This document shows, piece after piece, positions 2,339-63,870 of a DNA stretch of 64,000 nucleotides. The notes beneath the pieces were generated by a model. The model worked only from the letters and a program-made list of their open reading frames with translations. It did not search any database and was not told the origin of the DNA. Source of the DNA: Antedon mediterranea (lineage: Eukaryota > Animalia > Echinodermata). Position 1 is the stretch's first letter; each line of letters opens with the position of its first letter. Both the position numbers and the translations under genes were made by a program. The stretch lies in the NCBI RefSeq assembly GCF_964355755.1, contig NC_092678.1, forward strand, positions 15,030,371-15,094,370, given 5' to 3'.

Positions 2339-2440
2339 AATAGACACACCGATCAATATTTATATGAAGCTTCGTAATATTAAATTAGAGATATGTTCTG
2401 TCTGATAATCAATGGTGTATCCCCCACATTTACAAAAGAG
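2339..2440 (+). pseudogene. Ankyrin pseudo-exon (type A)
   Basis: Homologous to exon 14235-14339; ag/gt retained, but indels give an in-frame TAA. Confidence 0.75.
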
Positions 2441-2723
2441 GTTATTCGACAAAGATTTAAATTGAAATATAGCATACTGGTAATAGTACACTTATGCTTA
2501 AAAATAATCTTTTTTTGCTTTGTTTTTGTTCATCATATTATTACCTTCAAATATAAGAAGGTAATGTACTGTATGTTGTTCAATTATTATTAACATGATG
2601 CAACTGCTCTTGGTATAATTAATACATTTTAGCTCCTTTCGATTAATTTGATTTAGTTAATCAATGTTGTATAATCCATCGAAGAATAATATTTATTAAA
2701 AATATAACATTTTCTACATGTAC

Positions 2724-2819
2724 ATGCTCTACATGTACATCTAAGTGGTAGATATGTTAAACCTTCGTTATAAATAGTTACTTATAAGCTTGGTTGTATC
2801 TCTAACATTACTGAATAAG
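2724..2819 (+). pseudogene. Ankyrin pseudo-exon (type B)
   Basis: Homologous to 14581-14691 including the donor AATAAG|gtaaag; acceptor and 5' part lost; indels and a stop. Confidence 0.75.
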
Positions 2820-3906
2820 GTAAAGTACATAAGAGTGGACCCTATATTTCGGTGATCTAACCTTGTGTAATTATCGGGTGACACTCAAGCGCACCTCATA
2901 TTTCGAGTATTGTGTTCATAACTATAAAGGCCTACTTGCATCACAGTGGTTAAAACAAGAAAACACAGTTGGACACCTCTAACGGTCGTGGTACCGATAT
3001 TTAATCTCTAAATGGGAAATGAATATATTATATATATTTTAATTATCCGCATCGTTTTATTTCTATTGTATAAAATAAATACGTTGTGTGATTTGTAATG
3101 AATTAATTATATATCTTCATAAAGGCGGACATAGCATAAGGTAAAAGGGCTAGAGATAATGTATTGAATAGATTATTAATTTAACTATGTTTTATGTTTT
3201 AGTATCCCTAAAGTCTAAAAAGGGCCAATTTGGGAAAAAATTAGAAACAAGTGTTTCTCAACTGATTTGTGTCATCTGGGGTCTATATATCCACCAAATT
3301 TTGGAATTTTAAAGTGGCGGCCATAAATTACAGGTGCACCCGATTCTGCTACTATCCATAGGTGCTATCTGTAAAACTATAGCAAGTTATACACGTTGCT
3401 GTCTGCTATAAATGCTGTACTTTTAACACACGGTACACTGTCTGTAGCACAGTGTCTGTTGACAATTTACAATGATGTACAACCATAGGCAGGTTTTCGT
3501 ACTGCCATGCAAGAATGGATAGGTGTTTTCCGCCGCTTTTAGGCCTTGATCTTGTCAGTTATTGTTATTAGTATACGAATTACGTAATTAGTTTAGTAGC
3601 TCATCTACCTTTTTAGCAGGGCATAATGAATATTTTAGCTAGGCTAGGCCTACTAGTCTAGCGGGAAATCAACCAATTATTTGGTTGGATACGAGCTTAG
3701 GGTAGGAAGTTAAGTACGAGTTGGCATGGGTACGAGTCGACCAGGGGTGAATCGACCAGGGTACACCCAGCCGCACTACTAGATCATAGGCTAACATGCC
3801 TGCAGGAATGGAAAATCTGTCCTAGCTATAGGCATAGGCCTACATTGGGACGCCAAAAAAAGCCATCCTATGAGCATAAAAAGGCCTCCTAGAACCAGAC
3901 GTTTTA

Positions 3907-4308
3907 TTGTTCTTTAACATCCCTCAATCCAGTGCAAGTGAGGACACAGAGAATGTCCTACGGAAGGTGCTGACCAAAGTAAACACCGCTGCTGACGATA
4001 TCGAGTTTGCAAATGTCCACCGTCTGCCTACCAAGTCTGTAACGACTACTAAGCCCATCATAGCAAAATTTCTAAAAATGAAAGATCGTGAGGCCGTTTT
4101 GAATTACATTTCTCGCGCTAAGCTGAACATCGCTGGGAAACCGGTTGTTGCTGTTCCACATCTGCCTACAGCCATGCAACATGAACGGAAAAGGCTCATT
4201 CCAATTCGAAACAAGCTGTTAGACAGTGGGAAGAACGCCAAAATACGAGTTCAAGGCACCAAGGTAGCTATCTTCGTTGATAAGGTAATATGGAAAGAGA
4301 ATTTGTAA
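3907..4308 (+). pseudogene. LINE ORF1 C-terminal fragment (RRM-type, CR1 group)
   Basis: IEFANVHRL...KPIIAKF...ERKRLIP motifs upstream of an APE-containing ORF2. Confidence 0.75.
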
Positions 4309-4830
4309 ATTGTTTACTATTCTATTTCAACATTAACTCATTTTTTAACTTCGAAATGCCGGACGGTAGTCGTTTTATTTGCCATTTTCAACATTTAATT
4401 TATTTCATGAACTTCCCAACTGTTTAATGAATTTCCGTACTGTTTAGAATGAGAATCGTTTATTTTCCTTTATTTATTGAACTATGCAAATGCCGGCAGT
4501 ACTTTATGGAGTGAGAAACTGTAAATTGTTTGTATTTCCATTCTTACATTAATTAATTATTTCATAAATTTTTAAAATGCAAGTAGTGTGAGATTTCATT
4601 GATCTTTCTATCTGTCCACACGTTAAATTCAAACATCATATGGACCTTTCCCCAGTAACACATTTTTCTTGTCCTCTTCGTTTTTCACTTTCTGCCTAGA
4701 TAAGTATATGTGTTTAAGTGTGTATAATATATGTTATATGTTGGCATGGTACTCTTTTTTTTTACATATATATTTCATTATGCGTTATATTTAATGACCT
4801 ATTACATTTCATTTTATATTATTCAAGTAA

Positions 4831-12600: not shown

Positions 12601-12879
12601 AAATTAAATCAAGACAGACTACCACCAACAAATGGCTCAACTATACAGCACTCTCATCAGCAAGTTATTACATGGAAGGTCTTGGATACAAATGCTATAA
12701 ACCCGATGGAAAAGGCTGGAGGATTCATGACAATCACCTCCAATCATGACAGACAAATGATATTGCACCTCAATCTTTACTGAAACCAATATGCTATAAC
12801 TGCAAAGGAGGAAACCTATGCAGCACTCTCACGATGCAAGGTGCATCAGTAACAGCACCAAATAAGGTAACTTATAAGA

Positions 12880-13390: not shown

Positions 13391-14234
13391 CAAGAAGATT
13401 TTGTTCTGAATTGTGTTTCTTATGGTATTAGGTAGAAAAATTACCAGATATAATTCAATATCCATTTTTATATTTTAATACGTCTTTGTAAAACAATTAT
13501 TTCATCAGACTTTTTCTGGCTTTTGTAAATATTTTATATATTAGATAAAAAAAATAAATATGATGGAAATAACAGAGATCAATTAAAATATATTGACTTT
13601 ACTTCTTGTTAGATATCATCTTTTTAAAGGACCATCACCTCTTTTAAGCGACCACTACCCCTATATTTAATTTAGTGACCACCACTTTTAAAGAACCACC
13701 GACTCTTGTAAGCGTCCATCACTTTTAAAGGATCACCACACGTAAGAAAGGTGATTGCTTACGATATATGTGTCACATAATAGTTTAAAAGACATTAGAA
13801 ACCATAATCAATTCAAATATACACTTAAACACATCTTCTGCATTGCAACTTATGATTTAATTAGGATTTGCTTGTTAATTAAGATTGTTGATGTATGTTG
13901 TTTTTTTTTTATCGAGAGTCCTTATTGAAACAAGCTCTAGAACTTATAAAGTTATCATCTTGCTCTCATCCTGCCATTTTATTATTATGTATTTGTAATA
14001 CAGTATTGATGAATGAGCAACGAATATAAAACGAACACACGTTCTGCCATTCCTGATAATTGTATAAGTAAAAAGTATGAGTATTCCTGTATCTGAAGTG
14101 TTTTGTAAACACAATGTGTCTTATAATATTCATATTGCATCAGCCACAAAACAACAACAATCAATCATGTTATCAGTTGTGTCTAACAATAAGAATAAGA
14201 ATCCTTATATTTTATGTTTATGATTTATTCACAG

Positions 14235-14339
14235 AATGGATACACACCGATAACTATTTATCTGGAGCATGATGATGTTAAATTAGAGATATTGTACTGT
14301 CTGATAACCAATGGTGAATCACCAACATTACCAAAAGAG
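14235..14339 (+). CDS. Ankyrin exon A1 (35 aa, phase 0-0)
   Basis: cacag|NGYTPITIYLEHDDVKLEILYCLITNGESPTLPKE|gtaatt. Confidence 0.7.
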
Positions 14340-17300
14340 GTAATTTGACAAAAATTTAAATTGCAATAGTATGGCATACTGGTAATAGTACGCTTAATAA
14401 TAATTATTATGTTTTGCTTCGTTTTTTACTTTCAAACGTAAGAAGGTATTGTACTATATGTTAATTATTATAAACATGATGCAACTTCTCTTGGTATAAA
14501 TAATACATTTTAGCGACTTTCAATTAATTTGATTTAAAAATATTTATTTATTAAAAATATAACATTTTTTATTTTTTTAGGAAGGAATCAATGCTCTACA
14601 TATACATCTAAGTGATAGATATGTTAAACCTACGTTAGAAATAGTGACTAATCTCATTAATCTTGGTGTATCTCCAACATTACAGAATAAGGTAAAGTAC
14701 ATAAGAGTGGGCATATATTCCCGTGATCTAACATTGTGTAATTATCGGGTGGGACTCAAACACACATCAGATCACGAGTATGGTGTTGTTCATAACTCTA
14801 TACCTCCATCAGAGTGGTTACAGCAAGCAAATACAGTTGGAACCCACTAACGTTCGTGGTACCGAGATTAAATCTCTAAATGGGGAATTAAAAAATATAT
14901 TTTTTTAATTATCCGCATCCTTTGTTTAATTTAATTTGTTATTGTATAAAATAAGTACGTGTGATTTATAATGAACTTGAGAGAAAAGTGCCTTACGTAC
15001 GTCTTCAATATTATGTAATAATATATCTTCATATCACATAGCATGAGGTAATAGGGATAGAGATAATTTATATACAAGATAAAAAAATAAATAAGATGGA
15101 AATAACACAGATCAATTAAAATATATTGACTTTACTTCTTGTTAGATATCATCTTTTTAAAGGAACATCACCTCTCCTAAGCGAACTTTTAATTAAATTA
15201 GTGACCACCACTTTTAAAGAACCACCGCCTCTTGTAAGCGTCCATCACTTTTAAAGGATCACCACACGTAAGAAAGGTGGTTTCTTACGATGTATGTGTC
15301 ACATAATAGTTTAAAGGACATTGGAAACCATAATCAATTCAAATATACACTTAAACACATCTTCTGCATTGCAACTTATGATTTAACTAAGATATGGTTG
15401 TTCATTAAGATGGTTGGTGTATGTTGTTTTTTTTATGTCGGGAGTCCTTATGGCAACAAGCTCTAGACCTTATAGAGTTATCATCTTGCTCTCATCCTGT
15501 CATTTTATTATATGTATTTGTAATACAGTATTGATGAATGAGCAACAAATATAAAACAAACCAACGTTCTGCCATTCCTTATAATTGTATGAGTAAAAAG
15601 TATGAGTATTCCTATATCTGAAGTGTTTGTGAACACAATATGTCTTATAATATTCATATTGCATCAGCCACAAATAACAACAATCAATCATGTTATCAGT
15701 TGTGTCTAACAATAAGAATAAGAATCCTTATAGTTTATGTTTATGATTTATTCACAGAATGGATACACACCGATAAATATTTATCTGGAGCGTGATGATG
15801 TTAAATTAGAGATATTGTACTGTCTGATAACCAATGGTGAATCACCAACTTTACCAAAGGTAATTTGAAAAAAAATTTAAATTACAATAGAATAGCATAC
15901 TGGTAATTGTATGCTTAATGATAATTATTATTTTCGATTTATTTTTACCTTCAAACGTAAGAAGGTATTGTACTGTTAATTATTATTAACATGATGCAAC
16001 TTCTCTTGGTATAAATAAAACATTTTAGCGACTTTCGATTAATTTGATTTAAAAATATTTATTTATTAAAAATATAACATTTTATATTTTTTTAGGAAGG
16101 AAGCAATGCTCTACATATACATCTAAGTGGTAGATATGTTAAACCTACGTTAAGAATAGTGACTACTCTCATTAAACTTTGTGTATCTCCAACATTACAG
16201 AATAAGGTAAAGTACATAAGAGTGGGCATGTATTCCCGTGATCTAACATTGTGTAATTATCGGGTGGCGCTCAAACACACCTCAGATCACGAGTATGGTG
16301 TTGTTCATAACTCTATACCTACACAAGAGTGGTTACAGCAATCAAATACAGTTGGACACCACTAACGTTCGTGGTACCGAGATTAAATCTCTAAATGGGG
16401 AATTAAAAAATATATTTTTTTAATTATCCGCATCCTTTGTTTAATTTAATTTTTTATTGTATAAAATAAGTACGTATGATTTATAATGAACTTGAGAGAA
16501 AAGTGCCCTACGTAAGTAAAGTAGTAAAGTCGAAACCTAAGCTAATGCTAACGGTCTTGGTGCCCATCTCCATTTCCTTAGAGTTTGGGCCAGGCACCAC
16601 TAAGTGTTTATGTATGCGGGGGTACGCCACTCCTCCCGCACAAACGAGTCTGATTTACCTTCCCAGTACTTTTAACATACCGGTACCCATTTATATCAAC
16701 TGGGTGGGGAGGAACAATGTGGATAAAGAATCTTGCTCAAGGACTCAACACCGCAGTGACCGAGCCTGGCTTGAACCGGCAACATATTGATTGCAAGTAC
16801 AATGCTCAAACCACTGCACCACAGTGCTCCGCTAAGTGCTGTCTTACGTACGTCTTCCTTATTATGTAATATTACATCTTCATATCACATAGCATACGGC
16901 AATAGGGATAGAGATAATATATTGAATGAATTATCAATTTAACTATTTTTTATGTGGACATGTCATTATAAAATGGTTGAATTTAGAATGATGACTGGAA
17001 GCAATGTTCACATTAAGCTGTATGTATAAACTGCACGATTATGATTTCTTTTGTCAGTAAGATTGCAAATTGATATAATTCGGTCTACGTTCAGAGCATA
17101 AGCACCAGTAAAATCTTTTATTTTAATTTATTTGTGTATTATTTATCATTGCATAACTAAAATGATTTTCTGCAATAACCTGTATGTATAATTTCTTTAT
17201 ACACTGTAAAAACGGCGTTTAGATTCTAAACGCATAGCTTGTACCCACTTTTTCCACACGTTTAGCTCGATACATGTTTAGCTTTTCTATGCGTTTAGAT

Positions 17301-20300
17301 TCTAAACGCATAGCTTGTACCCACTTTTTCCATACGTTTAGCTTGATACATGTTTAGTTTTTCTATGCGTTTAGATTATAAATGCATAGCTTGTACCCAC
17401 GTTTCCACATGTTTAGCTTTACACATGTTTAGTTTTTCCACGTATTTTTACATAAAAAAAAACAAAATGCTGTGGATGACAAAACATAAATTCAAACAAA
17501 CCAAACATGTACAGACTTATTATCAATTTTATTTTTCCTTAACATTGAAATACATTTTAATTGTACTTTTAACTATTCACATTACACTATGGCATGATCG
17601 GTGTATGATAAGATTAACTAGATTCTAATTGTTTTTGTTTGGGATAAGACAAGTCCCAAACAGCACATTAATAATAGGACCATCTTAATTATGCTGGCAT
17701 CACTACAATCAATAGCCTCTCTATCGGCCAAAATGAACCCACTATTGTATTTGTCTTCATCATCGAAGCTGACATCACAACCAGGCGAGGTGGCTCAGAT
17801 AGTTTAGAAGTTTTTCGCCTAAAATAATGAATGACCACCAACATTTTTAGACCTTTAATTTTAAACAATATATATGGGTAGGACTTGCAGTACAACCAAA
17901 TTATTTATTTTAGCCAGTCTTTATCTAGCCAAAGAACACAATAATGGAAATTGCGTATACAGTATAAATAACAACATTTAGTACCTACCTCCACTAAACT
18001 TATCACATCTTCATGCTGTTTTGTGCTTTTTAGGTTGACTGCCTTTTGAGGCTGTAGCAAAACCAAACAAACACTTTTGTCACTGTCCTCATTCTATCAA
18101 GACATTTAACATAATTAGTACAAAATTAAATATAGACTACATACAGTTTGCCATCTTATATAGTTGTTATACACGAAAATGCACGACAATTCAATTCAGG
18201 TATCCAGAGGCTTCTTGGGTGGATGCTAGATTGAAATTAGGCTGGGTGCAAGCACTTGAAATAAGCTCTAAGAAATTACATCTCTGCTGTATAGGTAAAA
18301 TACATTCTGATCATTTAAACTAAATTATTAGAAACCAATCCCATTAAATTAGGTATAGTTCTAGATCCATAAAATAATGTGTATGCTTACATTTTCCGGC
18401 TCTGTATTCATCAGAATGTTAATCATCTTTTGCATATTTTCTTAAAGTTTCTCACAGTTAGGTTCAGCCCTCAGCAAGAAGAACTCTTTCATTATCTATA
18501 AAAAATAAGAAAAAAAAGTTAATAGGCGTCATGTAAACTATTTAATTTATTACAATGAACATTTTTATTCCCTGTATTATATTAATTAATATCATTCAAA
18601 TAGGTTTTTATGGTAAAAAACTTTGACATTCTGTGTATGTGTGTTTTTGAAAAACAATGTGATGCGCCCAGGTATAACCATACCAATGTCATCATGACCA
18701 TTATAAAGGCACATGATAATTATTTTTTTTGTCAAATAAAATTTGACAGTCTTGACCTAGCATTTCAAGTTAAGGTAACGTAGTTATACGTATGCCATTT
18801 GATCACGCACAATACAACACAAACAATTAAAAAATGTTCAACATCCTAAAATTAAAATTTGTTTCAGTCACTCATCCATACATTAAGATACTACATAACA
18901 AAATATAGCATTATGAAATTACATTAAAACTCACTGGTTTTAAGGATAGGAAATTCTGTGACAATGGTATGTACATCACCATCCTTCAATAGTCTTAGCC
19001 AGTCTCTTCTCTTGGCAAATGTTTCTCTCTGCAATCTTGTCAGTTTTGGTTTGTCCATATTTACTTCACTGTACTGCTGCTTCATTATACCAATTGCTTC
19101 CTGATATGTTTCTTCAGTATCATCACCTTAGATTAGAACAATTAATAATACTAGATGGTACGCTCGCTTCGCTCGCGTACCATCTAGGTCGTGCCCACAG
19201 ATGGTTCTCGAATACATAATAATTTCAGCGTTAAAAAACTGGCGATTTCAAATGTACGTACCGCAGGACAATAATGTCGTTTACAGGAACGGATAAATAG
19301 ACACTGTGATTTATGTACTCAACTAAAATTAGCACCCTGGGAATTACTTCCGAAAGAGAAACTTGTCACAAAATGAGACCAATTGTTTAAGTCAAATTTA
19401 AACAAACTTAATTTGTGTTTTATATGTAACATTAGGGTTGAGGGATGGAAGAGGAACAATTTTTAAATATATTCTTTATCCATTTAGTAACGAAATATTA
19501 ATTGTTTTCATGTTTTACAAATAATATACCACTAAACCATGGAAGTATTTATACCCCCATGACTAAACACAGTAAAACATTGCGATGTAATACTTTGTTG
19601 AAACTATCACCGTCCTAGTCGATTGAAAAGTACAGTACGTGTAACGATACATCACTACGACGTGTATATGTTTATATAATGTAAAACAATTTGTGAAAAC
19701 CACCTCTATTCGGGGCAAATCATAAATTCGATTTAATCGTCAATAAATATTAAATTATCTAACTCAACTTAATCAGTAGGCCTAATGGTTTTCAATTGTT
19801 TCTTAGAGCTAATTCATACTTAAGTTGGTTCCTACCCTACCCACCAAAGTTGTTCTGCGTTTAGGGCATGTGGTGCACTGTAGGCCTATCCTCTACTGGC
19901 TTTACAACGCTACTCATGCCAGTGAGGGAAGGGTGGTTTAACTGCAATAATAAAGATTTGTACGTAATATACGGCGACTGAAAACGCTAGCTCATTATCC
20001 GTTTAAAAAAAATTTATATCCAACCTCTGCAGCACAGATTGAAAAAAAAAATGGATCGAATTTCTGTTATGAGTATACAGTACTTGAATTTACGACGCCT
20101 GAGGGAATAGAACTTGTGGAACAGAGATTGGAAAGTTCCATTCATCGCAAATCAATACATTTGTATAAACGTATATTAAATCTATCAAAATAATACTTTT
20201 TAAAGAAAATCGGCCTGTCTTCAACATTATGATGCTGTACTCGAGCTGTTCAACCGATTTTCAGCGATCAAAAACAATTATCGTAGGAGGAGATAGGAAA

Positions 20301-23300
20301 ATGCGAAGCATCCTCGCATTATTGTATGCGGGTATTTTTCAAGATGGACATGCATTAGACAGTGTATACCACGATCGGAAAACACCCCTATTTGGAGCAA
20401 ATCGTTGAACCTAAATTCGTTTTAATCGTCAATAACTAATTTTCGAACTCAATTAGTAAACAGGGTTACATCAGGTGGTTAAAATCAGTATCGAAAGTAC
20501 GAACCAACTTTATATACCATCGAGTAAAAATTCTAGAAGTAAGGCGCGATTGACCGAATTTTGCCCTTACGTAAATTTATATATAGATACTGTAGTGTTA
20601 ATATAGTGGAATTGAAAATTAGAATATATAGTTCAATACAACACTTGAGTTAGATGATTATATAATTAGAAAATTGATTGGGCATTTGTCGATGTAGGCC
20701 TATACTAGAATTAGAAACACACTACAAAAACATATTTGGATTAGCGAATCATATGTAGGCCTAGTTGATATTGAGAAAATCACTACTAGTACTACTATCT
20801 ATTAAGAGCCATTGTCTGTAAGAATCAAAGAAATATCAAAAAAAGTGGCAGACTAAAAAAAATGGATTTCTTTCAAATTTTGCACATGGCTATATATGTG
20901 TTGAGAGAAATCAAATATGAAGTATTTTTTATTTCACACGTATATTTCCATGGCAACGGCCAAATTTATGTTTTTGACAAATTTTGTCCTTTTTTAAGGT
21001 TTTTTAAAATGGATATTGGCACTACTTTGATGAACGATATTTTTGTGTTGTTCATTTAATTATAAAAAATAATTAGTGTATGCATAATAACAATGCATTG
21101 TGTACCTGTTTCAAAATTTTTTATTTTTTTTTATTTCATACTTTGGGAGATACCATTTATTTAAAAAGGGGTGTTTTTCACTTTTTTTAAATTGTTCAAT
21201 GCAACTAAACTTTACTTCACCATAACGCCCAAAGTGGTGTATTTTTTTAGCTGATTTATTACAAATAGGTAGTTCTAATGTTTAATAATTGATTTCTAAA
21301 ATAAAATACTGGGGTAAATTTAAAATCTACAAGCAGTGTTGCGAGAAACATAGGCATTTTTATATAAAAAAAAAACATGGTATATTAGTAAAAACATTTT
21401 ATTTTCTTTGATTATTTGATTTGAAACTCATTGGTCAGAAAAATTCTTAATGTTTTATATAGTTCTAGTTGTGTTGTGAGAAAAAAAATTAATTTTTAAT
21501 TATAGATTCTGTAATTCCCAGTTTTAATGTCATTTTATAGGTTATATCCTCTGGAAATTTGAATAAATTATCAGATCGTTGTGAATTTTAATCTTTGCAA
21601 CAGATTACTCCTCTCTTATTTTGAAGCTCCTCTTTCATTTGTTTACTTCTTTTATTTGCTAACCTAAGCAGATCCCACATGCCCATCCACCACCACTTTC
21701 GACTACCACCCCTCCCCACCCCCACCCCGACTATAACCACAAAAAGATAAACTGCAACACTTTGGTCGATCATCCACTATAGAGTGTCAAATGCATGCAT
21801 TCAAGCACCACCCACACTGCCGCTACTATCGCCCCAATGAATAGACGGATTCAAACTCCTCCATCCCACCACCTCCCCCTTTTCTCCAAGCCCCCACCCA
21901 CCCCAAGTTAAAAATTGCAATGCAAAAGATAGGACATAAAGTTAAGTTTTTAGACCCTCGCCTTCAACCACCTAACTATTTAAAAGTCCTGGATCCACCA
22001 CTTTCCCCTCCCCAAAATAGAACCAATCAAAAGTCAATGATATACTCAGGTATGTTAATGCTACATAACAAATATTGAAGCCCTGATTTGAAATTTCATT
22101 TCATTTAAGGTCAGCATGTAAAATATCACACTTTATTATTAAATATTGGTTTTAAATTCTATATTTTTTTTACTGTGATGGTTGGATTCAGTAATAACTA
22201 TTAATTAATAATTATCTGATAATTATTTATTTTCCCTTAGTTATGCATAGCAACAGTTACTATGGTAACTAAAAATGAGATATTCTTTAGATTTTGCATA
22301 TTTATCTCATACAAATTTAAATTTGTAGATTATTAGCAGGCATGCCTTATTTGCATTTTCAAATTACCGTTTCACAAGGTCATATTCGTAAGCACTTTCT
22401 TCTGTGATTATTTTTATTCATGAAAACCCCATATTTTATTTACAGCGGCCACCTCCCTTAACGGACGCACTTTGAAAAGCCTGTTTGTTCTTCCTATCTA
22501 ATTAGTGCATTTGGTGCTTACCGTAAGCAGCTGCGAGCACCTCTTTATACTAAAAATGAGATTTTTTGTAAGAGGCCAATCGAAAAATGTGATACTTATT
22601 GCATGGACCTATGAATTAGAGGTGCATGTTTATTGTATTTCTTTATATATTAGCTTTATTTTGAAGAGGTTTTAAAAACATTACTGTGAAGAGATGAGAA
22701 AACTAGACAGATTTTGACCGACCATTTTTCATATGATAAAAGTTTTTAAAATTTGTCTGAAAATGCTAAAAAATACTAAACCACCTGATTATAAATAATA
22801 ATATGCCTACAATTAGCTGGAAAATTGAGAGGCTCGTTTCTTTAAGAATATCGTATATAGCCATAATAAGTGATTTTGGCCCTTTATCGGCAGAACCTCC
22901 CGTAAGGGGTCACCGCCCGTAAGCGGCCACTTTTCTAGGTCCCGAGGGTGGCCACTTACGGGAGGTTCAACTGTATTTAACAAAACAATTATCCTTAGTT
23001 ACGCATAGAAACAGGTTCTAAGATAACATAAATAATACATTTTGACATAACTTGACCCAAAAAATGACCCTTTCACAAGGTCAGACATTTTCTGGGATTC
23101 AGTAGATAAGTAAATTTGGGAAAAGGTAGTAAAGCTATGTAATCAATTGTTTGTAGTCATGAAACCCCATATTAAAAATATTGTACTTAGTTACGTATAG
23201 AAACAGTTGCTACAATACACTATAGGTAAAATGTTGATGTCATTTGACCTCAATATGTAAAATTTTTTTTTTTCATGAAACTCCATATTTAATTTTTTTT

Positions 23301-26300
23301 TTAATATCATTTGTTACGTAAACAGGTTTAAGATAACACTAAAGGTAATTTTTTTAAACCTTTATTCAGATTCGTCAAGACTTTCTTTCTGAGATTATTA
23401 GGATTCAGTATTTAAAGTAAATTTGGCAAAAAGTAGAAATGTAAAACTATGTAGAAAAAATGTTTTTTATTTATGAAAAACCCCTTATTTTTTTTAAATT
23501 TTCGCATAGAAACAGTTACTATGGTAAAATGTTGACCTCAAAATGAATGAATTTACAAGGTCAAGTTTGTCATTAATGGAATGCAGTAGAAGTAAAATTG
23601 AGAAACATGTACAAATGCAATCAATTCTTTGTATTTATAAAAACGCAATTTTTTACGTTTTTTTTTAAATTACTTTCCTTAGTTACACATAGAAATGGTT
23701 GCTAAGGTAACACTATAGGTAAAATATGAAAATTGTTGAGAATTGTTATGAACTATCTTGTAAATTTTGATCAAATATTAATAGTTGTAGTAAAGTGGGG
23801 ACCTGTCCTATTTTGCATTCTGACCCCTTTTGACCTCAAATGACCTATTTACAAGGTCAGATTTTTTGGGAGGTCTTTCTGTATCTCTTTACACAAAATA
23901 GATTTAAAAATTTATAAAAACTATTGACTCAATTATTTCCAAGTTTAACATTATTTTCCATCAACTAAATATTTCAATGCAAAATACTGTTTTTCTGGCA
24001 ATTAATTGAAATAAACCTGGCAACACATTCTCCTATTTTATCTAAACTATTCGTATGACTCTAGTAGCATTATGACAAGCCATATATACATTTTATTATT
24101 GGATTAGCCATATTTAAATTGTGTTTCATGTGTTTTGTTTGTTGATATTTTGTTATATTTTTTGCATTTTTCGTATTTTCCTGCCAACACAAAACCTATG
24201 TACGAAATTTACCCCAGTGTTTTTTTCGTGATTATTGTTGACAAACCTATTGACTATCAAATTAAAAAACCTCATTGATTTAAAAACACCACTTTGGAAG
24301 TTATAGGTACGTTTATGAGGTATACTTTTATAAAAAAAATATTTTTTAAAAACACCCCTTTTTAAAATAATGGTATCAACCAAACTCCATTTTGTAATTT
24401 TTTTTTTTCTATATTAAATGGAACTCAATACATGTTGTTTACACTGCTATAAACAAAAACTGTATACTGTAAGTATTTTTGGTTAAAATAAGTATACAAG
24501 TTTGTACTTTTTCACTATAGAAAATCTGTGAAAAATGGCAAAAACATCAAAATTTGGATAATTGACCGTTGTCATGGCAACGGAGGCTAAAAATTAAAAT
24601 GAATGTTGTAGATATGCTTTTTATTGAAATGTCTATTCATGGTAAAAATTTGAGAGAAATCCATTTTTTTACATCTGCCACCAAATCTTTGATTTTTACA
24701 GACAATGGCTCTTAAGTTGTGTCTACTAGGCTACTCTACTTGCTTTGATCCTAGCCCATAAGAGTAGGCTACTCTACTACTTACAGGGCTTAAAGATAGT
24801 AGCCTAGGTAGGCCTATATTACAACCCTCTCTCTGTCTACCTAGGCTAGGCCTAATTAGTTTAGGCTAGCCTAGGCCTGACTGAGGAAGGAGCCTACATG
24901 CTTCTAGGCTCCTTGCTAGCCTAGCCCCTACTAAGTACTATACTAGCCTAGCTCGGCCTAGCTAAACCTCTAAAGCTAGGCCAGCTAGAGTAGTAGAGGC
25001 CTGGCTGAGGCTAGGCCTAGTCCTAGGCCTATGCTAATAATATAATAATTATTACAATACAAGACGAACAAATGGGATCCTTACCGTGTACACATCATTT
25101 TCTGTGTGTTTAATTTTAGTAATAATAAACCGATAATGTGGATTTAAATTGTGTAGAAAGAAGAAGACGATATGAGACGTCATGACAGTTGATTTTTTTT
25201 CAAAGAACGGCGCCAGAGAGAAGTCAGCGGATCAACCTTCTTTTATTGGTTTATATCTCAAAGCATGTGATCACATGGGGCACGAGGGCGGACCATGATC
25301 AAATAATGACCTTAATAATAATAGATAGTTTGAATTTGTCTTGTATGTCTTGTATTAGTCTAGCCCGTATTTTTTGTCGAATATACGCCCCGGGGTAGTT
25401 TTGTTGAGGGACTTTTTAGGGGAAGTTTATTTGAGGGAGGTGTTTATTTACTAATTTGATTTTAGTTACTTTTTGTTTTTGTTCAGGCACTTTCAACACA
25501 AGCTTTTGCTTTTTAGAAATTGTGCCTCCTTCATAATATTGTTTTATTCATTTTAAAGATGAGAAAAAAATTGTATTGTTTTAACTATCTTTCTTCTCGT
25601 CATGAATTTTGTATTATATTATTTATTTTGTATATTATGGGCGGAATTTATTCGAAGAAGAAGGATAAATAAACGCCCGGGGCGTTTGATCGAGGGATTT
25701 TTTATTCTAAATTACGTTCCACTGTGGGTGAGAGAGGAGTTTATTCGAGGCCGGGACCAATATAAGAGCGGTAGCGATTTTTCGCATAAATGGTGTGTCG
25801 ATACCAATAATACTTATTGATAGGTATAGAAGGTTAAAATTGAATTCCAGACAAGTCCAAGTTTATATTTATATAAATCATAAGGTTTTTAGTTTTTAAA
25901 GCTCCACATGTTTAGCAACCATAGGATAAATTCAACTCATGGCATATGAGTGCTAAACATGTTTAGCTAGTGACATGTTTATACACGATCTTATAGGCTA
26001 AATACGTAACCAACATGTTTTAAAGCTCCACGTGTTTAGCTGATTATCCAGCAGCTCTACATGTTTAATTGACCCATGCGTGGAGCCTATGCTTGGAGCT
26101 TTAAATTAATACAGACATAATCCTATACAGGCAAGCTAAACGCTTGCTAAACGATTGCTAAACGTGTTTATTCCTAAACATGTGGATAAATTCAACACGT
26201 ATGAGACACGTTGAATGCTAAACACGTGGAGCAATACAACACATCAGTCTACACGTGTTTATATTTTAAACTGCTTGTAGGTTAAACACGTTTAAAAGCT

Positions 26301-46903: not shown

Positions 46904-47207
46904 ACGATCAATACAGTCGTCTATCCTCGGTATGGGATATGAATCTGTAGTAGATTTGGCATTAACCTTCCGATAATCAGTACAAAAGCGATACGATTTA
47001 TCTGGCTTCGGAACTAATATACATGGAGAACTCCAAGCACTGCAACTAGGCTCGTGTAATCAATCTCATTTTGTAATATCTTCATCTTGAACGGATTTGC
47101 TCTATATGGATTTTGTTTTATTGGTGAACAATCAGCTGTCTTAACGTCATGCTCCACTAAGTTCGTTCGACCTGGAACATCCGAAAACAACTGCAGATTT
47201 CCAAATA

Positions 47208-49047: not shown

Positions 49048-49077
49048 ACTTGCTCCAGCAGAAGACTCGTTTGAAAA

Positions 49078-51900: not shown

Positions 51901-52071
51901 CAAATATTATCACATTCAACAGAACGCATCTTGATTATTTTCGTAAAATACTATCATATTCAACAGAACGCATCTTGATTATTTTCGTCAAATACTATCA
52001 CATTCAACAGAACGCATCTTGATTATTTTCGTCAAATATTATCACATTTAACAGAACGCATCTTGATTATT
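51901..52071. repeat. 44-bp minisatellite, ~3.9 copies
   Basis: Unit caaatattatcacattcaacagaacgcatcttgattattttcgt. Confidence 0.9.
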
Positions 52072-57790: not shown

Positions 57791-60700
57791 ATGTCGAGGT
57801 GAGTTGTAAAGTTGAAGAGTTACAATACTATACGAACACGGCTACGAAAAACATAAATGCTATCATTTTTTTTAATTATTGATGTAACTCATTCTATATT
57901 TCATATTTGACCATTACAGATTACAAGATGCTTTTAAGATGAATGACTTGCAACAAATTAAAGAAATATGTCAGAAAAATCCAGATCTTTTGAAAAACAA
58001 AGATGAGGTAAAACAAAAGATAGACTTTCCATATTATTACTAATAAGAAAGTATAGTAATTCATTTAGTTCCAAGAAGATCATACATTTATGTAAATTGT
58101 AAAGTGTAATCATTATACCTATATTCAAATATAATGAATACTGTTTAATATCCTGGATCAATAACATATGCTTTAGTGACGAATGCTGCAAATTAAATAA
58201 ATAAATAAATTTAGTGACATTATTTATCGGTACTTACTGTTAATGTTTGTCTTAAATTATGAGATCGATGTGTACGGTTACTGTAGAGGGTTGGCCGATT
58301 AGTTAGACGGTCAGAATGACAGTTTCAAGTCAAGAGCCATTTTTTTGTATGTGAAATAATTATAATAATTAAGTTCATCCAAATCCAATCTAGTAAAACT
58401 TTTTCGAAATCATTATCTATATATAAATTTACGTAAGGGAAAAATTCGGTAAATCGCGCGTTATTTCTAGAATGTTTACTCGATGGTATATAAAGTTGGT
58501 TCGTACATTCGGTACTGATTTTAACCGCCTGATGTAACCCTGTTTACTAATTAAATTGAGTTCGATAATTAGTTATTGACGATTAAAACGAATTTAGGTT
58601 CAACGATTTGCCCCAAATAGGGGTGTTTTTCGATCGTGGTATACACTGTCTAATGGATGTCCGTCTTGAAAAATACCCGCAGACGATAATACGAGGATGC
58701 TTCGCATTTTCCTATCTTCTCCTACGATAATTGTTTTTAATGGCTGAAAACCGGTTGAACAGCTCGAGTACAGCATCATAATGTTGAAGACAGGCCGATT
58801 TTCTTTAAAAAATACTATTTTGATAGATTTAATATACGTTTATACAAATGTATTGATTTGCGATGAATGGAACATTCCAATCTCTGTTCCACAAGTGTCT
58901 ATTCCCTCAGGCGTCGTAAAGGCAAGTACTGTATACTCATAACAGAAATTCGATCCATTTTTTTTTTCAATCTGTGCTGCAGAGGTTGGATATACATTTT
59001 TTTTAAACGGATAAAGAGCTAGCGTTTTCACTCGCCGTATATTATTTATAAATCTTTATTATTGCAGTTAAACCACCCACATCATCACCCTTCCCTCACT
59101 GGCATGAGTAGCGTTGTAAAACCAGTAAAGGATAGGCCTACGGTACATCACATGCCCTAAACGCAGAACAACTTTGGTGGGTAGGGTAGGAACCAACTTA
59201 AGTATGAATTGGCTCTAAGAAACAATTGAAAACCATTAGGCCTACTAATTAAGTTAAGTTAAATAATTTAATATTTATTGACGATTAAATCGAATTTATG
59301 ATTTTCCCGAATAGAGGTGGTTTTCACAAATTGTTTTACATTATATAAACATATACACGTCGTAGTGATGTATCGTTACATGTAGGGCCCACTGTACTAT
59401 TTCAATCGACTAGGACGGTGATAGTTTCAACAAAGTATTACATCGCAATGTTTTACTGTGTTTAGTGGTATATTATTTGTAAAACATGAAAACAATAATA
59501 ATAATAATAATAATAACTGGTACTTGATATAGCGCATTATGCTGAAAGCCTCAATGCGCTTTACAAAGACAGAACAATTTATAAATTTACAAATTAAAAA
59601 GTGGGTTTTGAGGAGAGATTTGAAGACACTGGTGGAAGTAGCCTGACGGATTTCAATAGGCAACGCATTCCATAGAGAAACGGATGCCAAAGAAAATGAA
59701 CGATTTCCATAAAACTTAGTGGAAGGATGAAATATATGGGCAAGAAGAGACTCGGATCTAGATCTCAGAGACCGCTTAGGAACATAAGGTTGAATAAGTT
59801 CAATTAATATTTCGTTACTAAATGGATAAAGAATAATATTAAAAAATTGTTCCTCTTTGCACCCATCCTCTTCCCCATATCCATCCCTCAACCCTAATGT
59901 TACATACAAAACACAAATTAAGTTTGTTTAAATTTGACTTAAACAATTGGTTTCTCTTTCGGAAGTAATTCACATGGTGCTAATTTTAGTTGAGTACATA
60001 AATCACAGTGTCTATTTATTCGTTCCTGTAGGCTGTAAACGACATGTATTATTGTCCTGCGGTACGTACATATGAAATCGCCAGTTTTTTAACGCTGAAA
60101 TTATTATGTATTCGAGAACCATCTGTGTCTGTGGGCACGACCTAGATGGTACGCGAGCGAAGCGAGCGTACCATCTAGTACAGATAATTCATAATGGTGA
60201 CCAGACTCACATGTCTTTGTCAATCGACAACAGCAACTTTGTATTCACTTTTTTCGCTTATCATTATAGTAATTATAATTATTTTTTACTTCAGGGTTGT
60301 AACATAGCTGTTTGTGAGTATAAATGTAACTGATTTTAGTCATCAAAACAGTATTTAATTTACAACAGTTGTTAATTATTATGTGACATGAATAAAAAAC
60401 ATGTGTGCATTACAGCTGTAATCTATATTTATAAACTACATGATTATGATTTCTTTCTAGCAAGGATACACTCCACTACATGACTATTTACTATGTGCCA
60501 ACTCTACAACAGAAATAGTGGATTATCTCATACGGCACGGCGCATCAGCAACGTCACAAACTATGGTAATGTACACAAAATCATAATGCCCATACGATTA
60601 CAGTAGGTCTTTATGTCGTTATTATTAAAACAGTAGGCCTATCTGTTCCAGCAAACATCTCATTTCATTTATAATTTGTCATTTATATTTAAATTAATTA

Positions 60701-63330
60701 TTTAGAATTATTTATTGCGAATTTTTGAAGCAGTTATGGAATGAAACAATAAACGAAGGCATGCAATAACCGACATTTGTTTATAGAAACAATAATACAT
60801 TGCATAAAGTCAATTATGACATCATTATAATCGATTGTCATTCACACATTTAATTACAATTATAGTAGTACTTCAATGTATCTGTCTAATTTGTTTAAGT
60901 TGGTTTAAATAATATAATAATCAACTCTTGAATACTTTTATTTGGGTTATATTTTATATAAAGGCGTAAATTTTCTTTTTTGATTCAATCAAGTTAGTTC
61001 GATAGTTATGTACGAAATAAAAAAGTACTTACTACGACGTTTTGCAAACCGGTTTTTAAGTAGACTGATTGTTAGTTGCGTTGACGTTGGTCAGTACGGC
61101 GTGTTATATGTGACAAGCCAGATGTGTTGTAAATAAAGTACAAATAAATTTAGGTGGTTTTTATTGTTTTGTACACTCAGAAGATGTTGTCATGACACTG
61201 TAGAATTTACAACCATTATCAATGTGGCATGACCGAAAAATATGATTGCATTACATCTGGAATTGATATTTACTACTACATGTTTATGATTTCTTTCTAG
61301 CTTGGATACACTCCACTACATGTGTATTTAGGATGTTCCAATCCTACAAAAGAAATAGTGGATTTTCTCATACAACACGGCGCACAAGTAACGTCACAAA
61401 ATAAGGTAACATACAATTTTAGGAGGTCTATTATGCAAGTTTTAATAAAACATTATCGGTTCAAGCAAACATCTCTATTTCATTTGTAATATGTAATTTA
61501 TAATTAATATTAATTATTTTGAATTATTTATTGAGAAGCAGTTATTGAATGAAGCAAGAAATTAAGACATGCCATAACCGACATATATTTTTAGAAACAA
61601 TACTACATTGCATAAAGTCAATTAATATTAATTCACACATTGTATTACAATTATAGTAGCACTTTAATTTATCTGTCTAGGTTGTTTAAGTTGGTTTATA
61701 TAATATAATAATCGACTCTTGAAATAATTTTATTTGGGTCCTATTTTATAAAGGCGTAGACAAGTAGACTGTTGCGTTGACGTTGGTCAGTACGGCATGC
61801 TATATGTAACAAGCTATGTGTGGTAAATAATGTACAAATTAATTTAACTGATTTTTATTGTTTTGTACATTCAGAAGATTTTGTCATAACAATGTACAAT
61901 TTACAACCATTATCAATGTGGCATGACCAAAATATACGATTGCATTACAGCTGGAATTGATATTTATAAACTACATGATTATGATTTCTTTCTAGCTTGG
62001 ACACACTCCACTACATGTGAATTTACTATATGGCAATCCTACAACAGAAATAGTGGATTGTCTCATACAACACGGCGCAGATGTATCGTCACAAAATGAG
62101 GTAACATACAATTTTAGGAGGTCTATTATGCCAGTATTAATAAACATTATCGGTTCAAGCAAACATCTCTATTCGATTCATGACGTCTCTTTTATAATTA
62201 TATGAATTACTTAGAAGTATGTATTACAAATTCAAAAACAATTATAAAATAAAAAATTAATTAATTAAAAACTGTATTATGCAGAAATGCCATGATCGAT
62301 ATGTGTTTGTAAAACAATTATAACTAAGTGCGTCTCGCCAATTATGACGTCATATAATCGATTGTCATTCACACATTTGTATTACAATTATAGTAGTTCT
62401 TCAATTTCTCTGTCTATTTTTTTTAAAGTTGGTTAGAATATAATTAATATTCTTGAATTAATTTCATTGGGTCTTAATTTAACATAAACAAAATATGAAT
62501 ACATTGCATGAATATGACTTCTTTCTAGTATGGAGACACTACACTACATAGGTATTTGTGATATTCTAACAGCAATAGTGACTTGTGTCACATAGTATGG
62601 TGCATCAGTAACATCACAACATGTAGTAATGTACATACAATCATAGTGGTATTTATGTCATTATTGTGAAAACAGTATCTGTTCCAGCAAATATCTCTAT
62701 TTCATTTATAATATGTAACTTATAATTAATATTAATTATTTTGAATTATTTATTGCGAATTTTAGAAGCAGTTATTGAATGAAGCAAGAAATGAAGACAT
62801 GCCATAACCGACATGTTTTTTTAGAAACAATATTACATTGCATAAAATCAATTAATATTTAATTCACACATTGTATTACAATTATAGTAGCACTTTAATT
62901 TATCTGTCTAGGTTGTTTAAGTTGGTTTATATTATATAATAATCGACTTTTGAAATAATTTTATTTGGGTCCTATTTTATAAAGGCGTAGACAAGTAGAC
63001 TGTTGCGTTGACGTTGGTCAGTACGGCATGCTATATGTAACAGGCTATGTATGGTAAATAATGTACAAATGAATTTAGCTGGTTTTTATTGTTTTGTACA
63101 CTCAGAAGATTTTGTCATAACAATGTAGAATTTATAACTATTATCAATGTGACATGACCAAAATATACGATTGCATTACAGCTGGAATTAATATTTACTA
63201 CTACATGGTTATGATTTCCTTCTAGTCTGGATATACTCCACTACATTTGTATTTACTATGTGCCAACCATACAACAGAAATAGTGGATTGTCTCATACAA
63301 CACGGCGCAGAAGTAACGTTACGAAATAAG
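57791..63330 (+). CDS. Gene 2 (5' part): ankyrin-repeat protein related to gene 1, continues beyond the window
   Basis: ATGTCGAG|gtgagt 57791-57798; 57920-58007 (RLQDAFKMNDLQQIKEICQKNPDLLKNKDE); 105-nt ANK exons 60461-60565, 61301-61405, 61996-62100, 63226-63330; phases consistent. Confidence 0.85.
58416..60178 (+). mobile_element. Non-autonomous Helitron, copy 3 (with nested L2 fragment)
   Basis: A|TCTATATA...hairpin-CTAG|T. Confidence 0.9.
59495..59801 (-). mobile_element. 5'-truncated L2-type LINE 3' end
   Basis: PYVPKRSLRS...GNRSFS...LWNALP.EIR..TS..VFKSLLKTHF plus a (TTA)n tail; absent from the other Helitron copies. Confidence 0.85.
62529..62625 (+). pseudogene. Ankyrin pseudo-exon (97 nt, TGA at codon 11)
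   Basis: ttctag|YGDTTLHRYL*...|gtaatg; net 8 nt shorter than the 105-nt exons. Confidence 0.8.
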
Positions 63331-63773
63331 GTAACATACAATTTTAGGAGGTCTAATATGCCAGTATTAATTAAAACATTATCGGTTTAAGCAAACATCT
63401 CAATTCCATTTATGACGTCTCTTTTATAATAATATGAATTATTTAGAAGTAGGTATTGCAAATTCAAAAACAGTTATTAAATAAAAAAAATAAATTAATC
63501 AAAAACTATATTTTGCAGACATGCCATGATCGATATGTGTTTGGAAAAACAATTATTCCATAGTATAACTAAGTGCGTCTCGCCAATTATGACGTCATAT
63601 AATCGATTGTAATTCAAACATTTGTATTACAAGTATAGTAGTTCTTAAATTTATCTGTCTATTTTTTTAAGCTGGTTAGAATATAATTATTATTCTTGAA
63701 CTAATTTCATTGGGTCTTAATTTAACATAACAAAAAAATATGAATAAATTACATGAATATGACTTCTTTCTAG

Positions 63774-63870
63774 TATGGAGACACTACACTACATAGGTAT
63801 TTGCGATATTCTAACAGCAATAGTGACTTGTGTCACATAGTATGGCGCATCAGTAACATCACAACATGTA
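63774..63870 (+). pseudogene. Ankyrin pseudo-exon (97 nt, frameshifting)
   Basis: Duplicate of 62529-62625 with CGA instead of TGA; length is not a multiple of 3. Confidence 0.8.

What the first reader, a model, noticed from the sequence alone, without database searches (positions are those of the whole stretch)
2339..63870. One-repeat-per-exon ankyrin cassette library in a tandem gene cluster: possible combinatorial receptor diversification
Seen: 12 intact ANK exons (102-111 nt, all phase 0-0, all cut at the same ...NK|xG.TP position) and at least 5 pseudo-exons across two neighbouring genes. Any subset can be skipped, duplicated or swapped without a frameshift. Established: exon-per-repeat shuffling has been described for LRR-ROCO candidate immune genes in the brown alga Ectocarpus, and cassette splicing diversifies Dscam. 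Inference: an animal ankyrin-based analogue that varies its binding surface by alternative splicing and/or unequal crossover.
Basis: partly seen in the sequence, partly recalled or inferred. Interest (0 to 1): 0.88.

Follow-up and report, generated by a model that had tools for sequence, protein, structure and literature searches.

The report
Feather-star ankyrin-ROCO-DED gene cluster
In a feather star, two neighbouring genes carry one ankyrin repeat per exon, and these exons have been copied, lost and changed over evolution; the first gene goes on to encode a GTPase switch and a predicted cell-death adaptor, so the family is likely a set of fast-evolving intracellular sensors, but mixing of the exons by splicing or in body cells is not shown here.

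Summary
In detail: 12 intact phase-0/0 ankyrin (ANK) exons and 6 dead copies in two + strand genes; none arise in 20 shuffles. So it is itself a ROCO gene, from a crinoid family (23 named Antedon models, 1–9 repeats). Germline exon duplication, exon death, transposon damage and a mosaic paralogue are shown. Gene B's exons vary mostly at binding-face positions, with pN/pS above 1 (suggestive, not significant overall). Gene A's type-II exons are identical there and under purifying selection. Evidence for splicing diversity is thin: one annotated single-repeat skip in a paralogue and one exon–exon contig. No Dscam-type selector was seen, there is no somatic evidence, and the same junction occurs in ordinary vertebrate ankyrin-3 models. 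Best reading: a birth-and-death family of likely cytosolic sensors coupled to DED signalling, an animal ANK counterpart of brown-algal LRR-ROCOs, not found in my literature searches. New variant of a known kind; interest 0.5.

The parts
2339..2440 (+). dead type-Ia ANK exon (frameshift and stop), old copy of the 14235 unit
   Evidence: 76% match of 2289-3102 to 14189-14975
2729..2819 (+). dead type-Ib ANK exon (5' part lost, frameshift)
12827..12866 (+). 3' fragment of a type-II ANK exon with its GT donor, 5' part replaced by other sequence
13529..16517 (+). 1.53-kb tandem duplication carrying exons Ia+Ib twice, 93% identical
14235..14339 (+). gene A ANK exon Ia-1, 105 nt, phase 0-0
   Evidence: 28/35 aa to P0134 repeat 1
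14581..14691 (+). gene A ANK exon Ib-1, 111 nt, phase 0-0
   Evidence: 34/37 aa to P0134 repeat 2
15758..15859 (+). gene A ANK exon Ia-2, 102 nt, phase 0-0
16096..16206 (+). gene A ANK exon Ib-2, 111 nt, phase 0-0; 7 nonsynonymous and 0 synonymous differences from Ib-1
17202..26319 (.). 9.1-kb insertion with 12-bp CACT-type terminal inverted repeats and a TA duplication, 3 nt before exon 26323; it separates that exon from its polypyrimidine tract and leaves a second AG 5 nt upstream. CACTA/EnSpm-like label is recalled
26323..26427 (+). gene A type-II ANK exon 1 (acceptor damaged by the insertion)
26916..27020 (+). gene A type-II ANK exon 2; first copy of a 299-bp tandem unit
27215..27319 (+). 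gene A type-II ANK exon 3; 98% identical to exon 2, 35/35 aa to a P0134 repeat
27703..27807 (+). gene A type-II ANK exon 4
29783..29810 (+). 5' fragment of a dead type-II exon with its acceptor
31684..31768 (+). C-capping repeat exon, phase 0-1 (not skippable in frame)
   Evidence: homologue follows the last ANK in P0009, P0015, P0018, P0023, P0134
33198..35946 (+). six ROC exons (33198-33363, 33628-33725, 33975-34043, 34575-34723, 35521-35610, 35755-35946) with P-loop GKEGAGKT, switch-II DYAG and G4-like THID
   Evidence: open frame; Pfam Roc on paralogues
37608..40734 (+). six exons for the end of ROC and for COR (37608-37853, 39155-39349, 39502-39654, 39741-40040, 40322-40417, 40530-40734)
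   Evidence: COR-A above cut-off in paralogue P0001, 90-100% identical over most of these exons; weak COR-B hit
42988..43017 (+). 30-nt linker exon, phase 1-1
43603..44105 (+). last exon of gene A: predicted tandem death-effector domains and stop
   Evidence: Pfam DED below cut-off; model pLDDT 87.5; best Foldseek hits caspase-8/cFLIP tandem DED, TM 0.70, E 1e-3
57791..57798 (+). gene B start-codon exon end (ATG, phase-2 donor)
57920..58007 (+). gene B N-capping repeat exon, phase 2-0
   Evidence: tblastn with P0018 N-terminus E 3e-5; only N-cap hit in the window
60461..60565 (+). gene B type-III ANK exon 1
61301..61405 (+). gene B type-III ANK exon 2
   Evidence: exon-end-to-exon-start contig in run X1
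61996..62100 (+). gene B type-III ANK exon 3; first copy of a 1.24-kb unit
62529..62625 (+). dead type-III exon, 97 nt between a kept acceptor and a GT donor; would shift the frame if included
63226..63330 (+). gene B type-III ANK exon 4; 14.3% different from exon 3 while flanking introns differ by 6.4%
63774..63870 (+). dead type-III exon, 2 of 96 nt different from 62529

Best explanation
This is part of a tandem cluster of crinoid (Antedon) ANK-ROC-COR-DED-DED genes whose one-repeat ankyrin exons have been duplicated, lost and killed in the germline, and which likely act as fast-evolving cytosolic sensors coupled to cell-death signalling. Shown: gene A's exon map and open ROC-COR-DED frame; tandem exon-plus-intron duplications; dead exons; transposon insertions; different repeat numbers among paralogues; patchy identity to paralogue P0134. 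Inferred: misaligned crossing-over between near-identical exon units makes the copy-number changes and mosaics, and phase-0 symmetry lets them persist. Inferred: gene B (C-terminus outside the window) is also a ROCO, and selection is diversifying its binding face, while gene A's type-II repeats are kept uniform. Predicted by analogy with ROCOs and DED proteins, untested: the capped ANK stack binds a cytosolic ligand, the ROC-COR GTPase switches or dimerises, and the tandem DED recruits FADD/caspase-8-like partners. Occasional in-frame skipping of a repeat probably occurs but is likely a side effect, not the main source of diversity.
For: Exon map and chance control. 15-exon, 858-aa open frame whose last 320 aa equal XP_071959885.1. 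P0134 (XP_071961256.1, same scaffold length) has Ia+Ib+7 type-II repeats+cap+ROC-COR+DED, placing groups I and II in one gene. 23 named A. mediterranea models on five scaffolds, 1-9 repeats in the 11 named models with a repeat hit (some are 5'-truncated). Anneissia japonica has relatives. Duplications of 1.53 kb (93%), 299 bp (90%) and 1.24 kb. P0134 vs gene A by exon: ANK 80-100%, middle ROC/COR-A 43-86%, COR-B exons 84-94%, DED 32%, while P0015/P0001 are 82-100% over most of that middle (P0001 62% at one exon). Gene B pN/pS 1.6 or more in 6 of 6 exon pairs; gene A type II 0.23-0.45 in 6 of 6. In the youngest gene-B unit the live exon differs at 15/105 nt, introns at 50/782 (p 0.008), the dead exon at 2/96 (p 0.002); synonymous sites match the intron rate. 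Within-gene variation at five binding-face positions 0.63 vs 0.27 elsewhere in gene B (p 0.013), 0.64 vs 0.21 over five non-type-II genes (p 0.0004). Tandem DED fold; the same DED type sits on an Anneissia NACHT-LRR protein, P0153.
Against: No functional, expression-pattern or challenge data; no run on record as RNA. Gene B by parsimony: 29 nonsynonymous to 5-6 synonymous changes, not significantly different from neutral (p 0.10-0.17). The six pairs are not independent. The strong exon-versus-intron contrast holds in 1 of 4 gene-B comparisons; in the other three, exons differ by 12-17% and flanks by 10-18%. The binding-face positions are recalled from DARPin design, were cut from seven to five after the first run (0.37 vs 0.20, p 0.007), and are the positions any ankyrin repeat tolerates; fast divergence of paralogous repeats is general (PMC5120217, passages). 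Type-II genes show no binding-face variation (0.06 vs 0.18). Gene A looks damaged: no start or N-cap exon in the window, a 9.1-kb insertion in one acceptor, framework changes in Ib-2, and RefSeq models only its last 320 aa. DED is below the Pfam cut-off and no Foldseek hit passed E 0.001. Gene B's ROC-COR is not in the window.
Confidence: 0.6

Rival explanations
1. Splicing-based combinatorial receptor: each gene would make many isoforms by regulated skipping or choice of ANK cassettes, and this would be the main source of binding diversity.
For: All 12 exons are frame-symmetric. RefSeq isoforms X1/X2 of one paralogue on another scaffold (XP_071957837.1, XP_071957838.1) differ by exactly one 36-aa repeat. 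One contig of run X1 joins the end of a 61301-like exon to the start of a 61301-like exon, an order absent from the window's four exons. Brown-algal ROCOs have up to nine annotated splice forms (PMC11378527, passages).
Against: Only 1 single-repeat skip among the 23 named Antedon models seen, and its RNA support was not visible. Type-II exons are identical at the binding face. No shared docking/selector arm among the longest inverted repeats, which look like A/T-rich chance pairs (no shuffle control). Introns of 194 nt or more give no steric exclusion. The X1 contig is equally explained by ordinary splicing of another allele or copy. The same junction is used in vertebrate ankyrin-3 models.
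Confidence: 0.13
2. Neutral or relaxed expansion: exon units would duplicate because they can, in a transposon-rich cluster, and gene A (perhaps B) is decaying; no immune selection is needed.
For: Six dead exons; insertions in gene A including one in an acceptor; 7 of 7 nonsynonymous changes between Ib copies, some at framework positions; many truncated RefSeq models; gene B not significantly different from neutral by parsimony.
Against: 858 codons over 15 exons stay open with intact GTPase motifs. Type-II exons are under purifying selection (p 0.01-0.02) and more conserved than their introns. In gene B the TPLH motif and most helix-2 framework positions do not vary while the live exon outruns both introns and the dead exon in the youngest duplication.
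Confidence: 0.2
3. Somatic rearrangement of ANK exons in immune cells, as hypothesised for Ectocarpus.
For: Architecture would permit it. DNA contigs show chimeric joints between neighbouring gene-B units.
Against: Those joints sit at about single-copy depth in three runs of one sample, as expected for germline copies or the second haplotype, and the array runs past the window. No inverted exons (0 on the - strand). Somatic recombinants have not been reported even for brown-algal ROCOs (PMC11378527, passage).
Confidence: 0.03
4. The duplicated exons are an assembly artefact.
For: Tandem near-identical units are error-prone. At 27750 and 27753 all contigs laid carried a different letter from the window.
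Against: Copies differ by 2-20% in exons and 5-24% in introns. Contigs of sample S2 match the window with zero differences at several separate places, including across exon 61301; S2 may be the assembly's own source, so this checks the assembly only.
Confidence: 0.03

Closest known systems
Brown-algal LRR-ROC-COR genes with one LRR per exon (Zambounis et al. 2012, PMC3341825; Teng et al. 2024, PMC11378527; passages read)
   Same: ROC-COR core behind a repeat array with one repeat per symmetric exon; dead exons among live ones; tandem clusters with birth and death; repeat number differs between recent paralogues; variation on the binding face; candidate immune receptors without functional proof.
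   Different: Ankyrin exons of 102-111 nt in phase 0 instead of 72-nt phase-2 LRR exons; C-terminal tandem DED; animal; no exons on the opposite strand here; alternative splicing documented there, barely hinted here.
Fungal NLRs with high-internal-conservation (HIC) WD40/ANK/TPR repeats (PMC13449251, passages read)
   Same: Repeats 80-98% identical within an array, gain and loss of repeats, hypervariable positions (gene B, P0009, P0141), exchange between paralogues suspected, cell-death effector domain, association with transposons.
   Different: The switch is a ROC-COR GTPase, not a NACHT/NB-ARC ATPase; the effector is C-terminal; repeats are separated by introns; allelic length polymorphism and balancing selection were not tested.
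DAPK1 (kinase-ANK-ROC-COR-death domain; architecture recalled, named as a cell-death ROCO in PMC11378527)
   Same: ANK repeats, then ROC-COR, then a death-fold domain.
   Different: No kinase in gene B's start or in full-length paralogues P0009 and P0018; tandem DED instead of a death domain; multi-copy with recently duplicated repeats rather than a single conserved gene.
Arthropod Dscam1 cassette arrays (described in PMC11378527 passage; selector/docking mechanism recalled)
   Same: Tandem arrays of related exons made by duplication.
   Different: Here exons appear to be used in series to build one repeat stack (paralogue models include them consecutively); no sign of mutually exclusive choice; 4-9 exons, not dozens; intracellular.
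Vertebrate ankyrin-1/2/3 genes
   Same: Exon junction at the same K|xGxTP point and single-repeat in-frame differences between isoform models (the wider rule is recalled).
   Different: Their repeats are old and fixed in number; no ROC-COR.

Membership tests
ROCO proteins | ROC GTPase domain with G1, switch-II and G4 motifs | tested here: met
   Motifs in open frame of gene A; Pfam Roc above cut-off in P0007, P0009, P0014, P0134; first ROC exon 100% identical to P0015
ROCO proteins | COR domain directly after ROC | tested here: met
   COR-A 59.8 bits (cut-off 35.3) in P0001, which is 90-100% identical to gene A over those exons
ROCO proteins | ROC-COR in gene B | not testable with these tools
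ROCO proteins | GTP binding and hydrolysis | not testable with these tools
   needs biochemistry
Tandem-DED proteins (caspase-8/cFLIP/MC159 type) | two death-effector folds in tandem | tested here: met
   Confident ten-helix model; all 25 listed Foldseek hits are caspase-8, cFLIP, FADD-complex or vFLIP DED chains, best TM 0.70, E 1e-3; Pfam DED only 17-28 bits against cut-off 35.9
Brown-algal exon-shuffling ROCOs | LRR repeats in 72-nt phase-2 exons | tested here: not met
   ANK repeats in 102-111-nt phase-0 exons
Brown-algal exon-shuffling ROCOs | one repeat per symmetric exon, dead exons interspersed, clustered birth and death | tested here: met
Brown-algal exon-shuffling ROCOs | intact repeat exons on the non-coding strand | tested here: not met
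   0 on the - strand
Brown-algal exon-shuffling ROCOs | diversifying selection on the binding face | tested here: inconclusive
   Suggestive in gene B, absent in gene A type II
Brown-algal exon-shuffling ROCOs | multiple splice forms of the repeat exons | tested here: inconclusive
   One annotated skip in a paralogue; one junction contig; no RNA run on record
Fungal HIC NLRs | repeats 80-100% identical within a gene | tested here: met
   type II 89-98%, type III 80-88% at nucleotide level
Fungal HIC NLRs | NACHT or NB-ARC ATPase | tested here: not met
   ROC-COR instead
Fungal HIC NLRs | allelic repeat-number polymorphism | tested here: inconclusive
   Chimeric joints in short contigs cannot be assigned to alleles or to other copies
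DAPK1 | N-terminal Ser/Thr kinase and C-terminal death domain | tested here: not met
   Gene B starts with an N-cap; no kinase Pfam hit in P0009 or P0134; DED fold at the C-terminus; gene A's own start is outside the window
Dscam-type mutually exclusive cassettes | one exon of the cluster per mRNA | tested here: inconclusive
   Paralogue models use 2-9 repeats in series, and the X1 contig joins two ANK exons; both argue against it, but models are predictions
Dscam-type mutually exclusive cassettes | docking-selector RNA pairing | tested here: inconclusive
   No common arm pairing with every exon among the longest inverted repeats listed (25 of 79, 16 of 16, 25 of 27); short or imperfect pairings could be missed

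The most novel reading that the evidence does not exclude
Crinoids have an undescribed cytosolic immune-receptor family, ANK-ROC-COR-DED-DED, in which one-repeat exons with positively selected binding faces are recombined between alleles and paralogues and are also skipped in regulated combinations, giving each animal, and possibly each cell, a variable natural-DARPin repertoire wired through a GTPase switch to caspase-8-type death signalling.
Probability: 0.15. Interest if true: 0.85.

Novelty: new variant of a known kind. Interest (0 to 1): 0.5.

Why it matters
Exon-per-repeat diversification of ROCO genes was described in brown algae and proposed to serve immunity. A convergent version in a deuterostome animal, with ankyrin repeats and a tandem DED output, would argue that ROC-COR can play the sensor-switch-effector role usually given to NLRs. 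It adds a candidate receptor family to echinoderm immunity that the current annotation fragments (gene A is modelled as 320 aa; no model with gene B's repeats turned up). The DED gives a concrete read-out for testing, which the algal genes lack.

Tried and rejected
Run search: no RNA holder listed; this is no evidence on expression. X1 is only guessed to be RNA and its contigs also cover introns. Its summed depth is higher over exon bins, but contig depth cannot rank parts of a gene, so I did not use it. One search's joint table was filled by transposon joints (15 of 800 shown), so exon-exon joints in gene A could not be seen. Summed depth over ROC-COR and gene-B bins is several times that of unique contigs, in line with a multi-copy family, but it is not a copy number. 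Chimeric DNA joints between gene-B units (15 of 19 shown) were not taken as allelic variation. Minus-strand ORFs at 57457-58233 first looked like a gene; rejected once the + strand N-cap exon was found. Search for gene A's N-cap in the window by DNA and by profile: none. Docking/selector search: nothing clear. First per-position analysis had one misaligned repeat; redone (one search failed part-way). Papers giving exact DARPin positions or the ankyrin exon rule were not found, so both rest on recall. Literature searches for this family found no description: (listings; open-access library only, so subscription papers such as the early ROCO surveys are not covered; supplements not read). Look-ups of earlier scan findings by place, words and sequence were empty. 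No complex prediction was run.


Full report
Observation. Twelve are intact, bounded by AG and GT, 102-111 nt long and phase 0-0. A strict count gives 12 on the + strand, 0 on the - strand and 0 in each of 20 shuffles. Eight of 12 pass Pfam's ankyrin cut-off; the four at 14235-16206 have no Pfam hit but match consecutive repeats of a paralogue. Six dead copies or fragments lie among them. The cut is at one position of the repeat, though only 8 of 12 end in NK and 10 of 12 begin xGxTP. The exons fall into types Ia and Ib (94% identical within each pair), II (89-98%) and III (80-88%), with 52-66% between types.

What the genes are. Downstream of the type-II exons, 15 exons (31684-44105) give an 858-aa frame with no internal stop: a capping repeat, a ROC GTPase with intact motifs, COR, a short linker and a 166-aa last domain. 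Its last 320 aa are identical to XP_071959885.1 of Antedon mediterranea, so the window is from this feather star and RefSeq models only the tail of the gene. The last domain scores below Pfam's DED cut-off. It folds confidently (pLDDT 87.5), and its listed structural matches are tandem DEDs of caspase-8, cFLIP and vFLIP (best TM 0.70, E 1e-3; none passed E 0.001). Gene A is therefore ANK-ROC-COR-DED-DED. Paralogue P0134 (XP_071961256.1, same scaffold length) carries Ia, Ib, seven type-II repeats, cap, ROC-COR and DED, which places the window's groups I and II in one gene. Gene B starts at 57791 with a short ATG exon and an N-cap exon like that of full-length family members, followed by four live type-III exons; its end is outside the window, so its ROC-COR is inferred. 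Gene A's start is not in the window.

The family. 23 named A. mediterranea models on five scaffolds were seen; 12 models sit on the window's scaffold, some possibly halves of one gene. In the 11 named models with a hit to the window's repeat profile, repeat number runs from 1 to 9; several models are truncated, so low counts are soft. Of ten unnamed hits looked up, five were Anneissia japonica (four ROC-containing relatives and one DED-NACHT-LRR protein), three A. mediterranea... and the rest as listed: in all six crinoid-or-amphioxus groups, namely six Anneissia, three Antedon and one Branchiostoma. More distant relatives carry death, TIR, HEPN, ZU5 or kinase domains, a pattern of swapped effector domains.

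How the arrays change. Exons were duplicated with their introns: a 1.53-kb Ia+Ib unit (93%), a 299-bp type-II unit (90%) and a 1.24-kb type-III unit that carries one live and one dead exon. An older Ia+Ib copy at 2339-2819 is dead. In a tree of 46 repeats, those of gene B, P0141 and most of P0009 group by gene, while type-II repeats of four neighbouring genes intermix. P0134 is patchy against gene A: 80-100% in ANK exons, 43-86% in middle ROC and COR-A exons, 84-94% in COR-B exons and 32% in the DED, whereas P0015 and P0001 stay at 82-100% over most of the middle. Recombination between paralogues is the simplest reading, with the caveat that P0134 is a predicted model that also begins with a retrotransposon fragment. 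Transposons add damage: a 9.1-kb element with CACT-type ends and a TA duplication sits 3 nt before exon 26323 and removes its polypyrimidine tract.

Selection. Gene A's type-II exons are under purifying selection (pN/pS 0.23-0.45 in 6 of 6 pairs; p 0.01-0.02) and do not vary at binding-face positions. Gene B differs: pN/pS is 1.6 or more in 6 of 6 pairs. In its youngest duplication the live exon differs at 15/105 nt against 50/782 in introns (p 0.008) and 2/96 in the dead exon (p 0.002), with synonymous sites at the intron rate. Variation concentrates at repeat positions 1, 3, 8, 11 and 12 in gene B (p 0.013) and across five non-type-II genes (p 0.0004), not in type-II genes (p 0.89). Against this: the parsimony total for gene B (29 to 5-6) is not significantly above neutral (p 0.10-0.17); three other gene-B comparisons show exons no more divergent than their flanks; the positions are recalled from DARPin design and were narrowed after a first run; and fast divergence among paralogous repeats is general (PMC5120217, passages). 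I call this suggestive.

Splicing. No run is on record as RNA. Two hints exist. RefSeq isoforms X1 and X2 of a paralogue on another scaffold differ by exactly one repeat. One contig of run X1 joins the end of a 61301-like exon to the start of a 61301-like exon with the 2-nt ambiguity expected of a splice junction; it is absent from three DNA runs of another sample. This fits a spliced transcript in which ANK exons are joined in series, and says nothing about alternative choice. No selector-type pairing was seen. The architecture itself is ordinary: tilapia ankyrin-3 isoform models differ by one 33-aa repeat cut at the same point. Nothing here points to somatic rearrangement.

Mechanism. Most likely (0.6) this is a birth-and-death family of cytosolic sensors. 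The germline dynamics are shown. Unequal crossing-over as their cause and selection on gene B are inferred. Ligand binding by the capped ANK stack, switching by ROC-COR and recruitment of caspase-8-type partners by the DEDs are predicted by analogy and untested. Rivals: relaxed expansion and decay (0.2), splicing-based repertoire (0.13), somatic shuffling (0.03), artefact (0.03).

Comparison and novelty. It works like the brown-algal LRR-ROCOs (PMC3341825, passages; PMC11378527, first part of the text and passages) and the fungal HIC-repeat NLRs (PMC13449251, passages), but is a member of neither: the repeats are ANK, the exons phase 0, the switch a GTPase. It is a ROCO (gene A tested and met) and is not DAPK1. 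ROC-COR domains beside TIR or death domains have been noted in Aplysia (PMC9334734, passages), and LRR-AP-GTPase-COR proteins with variable effectors in bacterial conflict systems (PMC8195603, passages). Six searches found no description of a crinoid ANK-ROC-COR-DED family or its exon arrays; the library lacks most subscription papers and I read no supplements. Earlier notes of this scan describe similar ANK exon arrays in other genomes as ordinary repeat-gene evolution (unchecked), which tempers the surprise of the exon layout. Verdict: real, a new variant of a known kind, interest 0.5; the full combinatorial reading has probability about 0.15 and would merit 0.85. Correction to the count in the third paragraph: one search named six Anneissia japonica proteins (P0153, P0145, P0146, P0159, P0139, P0237), three A. 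mediterranea (P0141, P0147, P0160) and one Branchiostoma (P0176); and 11 models, not 12, list the window's scaffold length (P0001-P0006, P0011, P0012, P0015, P0023, P0134).

Noticed in passing
window 17202-26319: 9.1-kb element with CACT-type terminal inverted repeats and subterminal repeats, inserted in a splice acceptor; it seems to hold a decayed spliced gene on the - strand (candidate exons near 25085-25150, 18969-19121, 18373-18488, 17620-17800).
   Followed up: partly
window 45494-50854: Gypsy-type LTR retrotransposon on the - strand with 120-bp LTRs (97% identical), SCAN and zinc-knuckle gag, integrase; pol is broken by stops.
   Followed up: partly
window 19140-20588, 27903-29357, 58411-60180: Three copies of a high-copy 1.45-kb element in introns of both genes; run X3 has a contig joining 27903 to 29356, so an allele or paralogue lacks that copy.
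   Followed up: partly
window 3337-11038: Nested inverted repeats (3337-3906 with 10468-11038, 93%; 6947-7546 with 9507-10125, 80%) around a LINE-type PHD-endonuclease frame at 4831-6381.
   Followed up: no
window 429-839 (-): DDE_Tnp_4 (Harbinger-type, label recalled) transposase fragment.
   Followed up: no
window 52433-56137: Three 72%-identical non-coding units of about 1.5 kb just upstream of gene B's start; possibly a triplicated promoter or 5' region.
   Followed up: no
window 62529-62625 and 63774-63870: The dead type-III exons keep acceptor and donor and would shift the frame if included; one contig at about seven times single-copy depth covers them, whereas live exons sit on separate single-depth contigs. 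Possible poison exons.
   Followed up: partly
window 43029-43163: A 135-bp palindromic, very high-copy miniature element right after the linker exon's donor.
   Followed up: no
protein P0009 residues about 1030-1470; P0018 about 870-1020: Paralogues carry long, recently expanded Pro/Glu/Lys-rich repeats between COR and DED, so the linker also varies by repeat expansion.
   Followed up: no
proteins P0237, P0145 (Anneissia japonica): Their ANK repeats look unlike each other, and in P0237 only the last internal repeat matches the Antedon array profile; the Antedon arrays may have grown from that one exon.
   Followed up: partly
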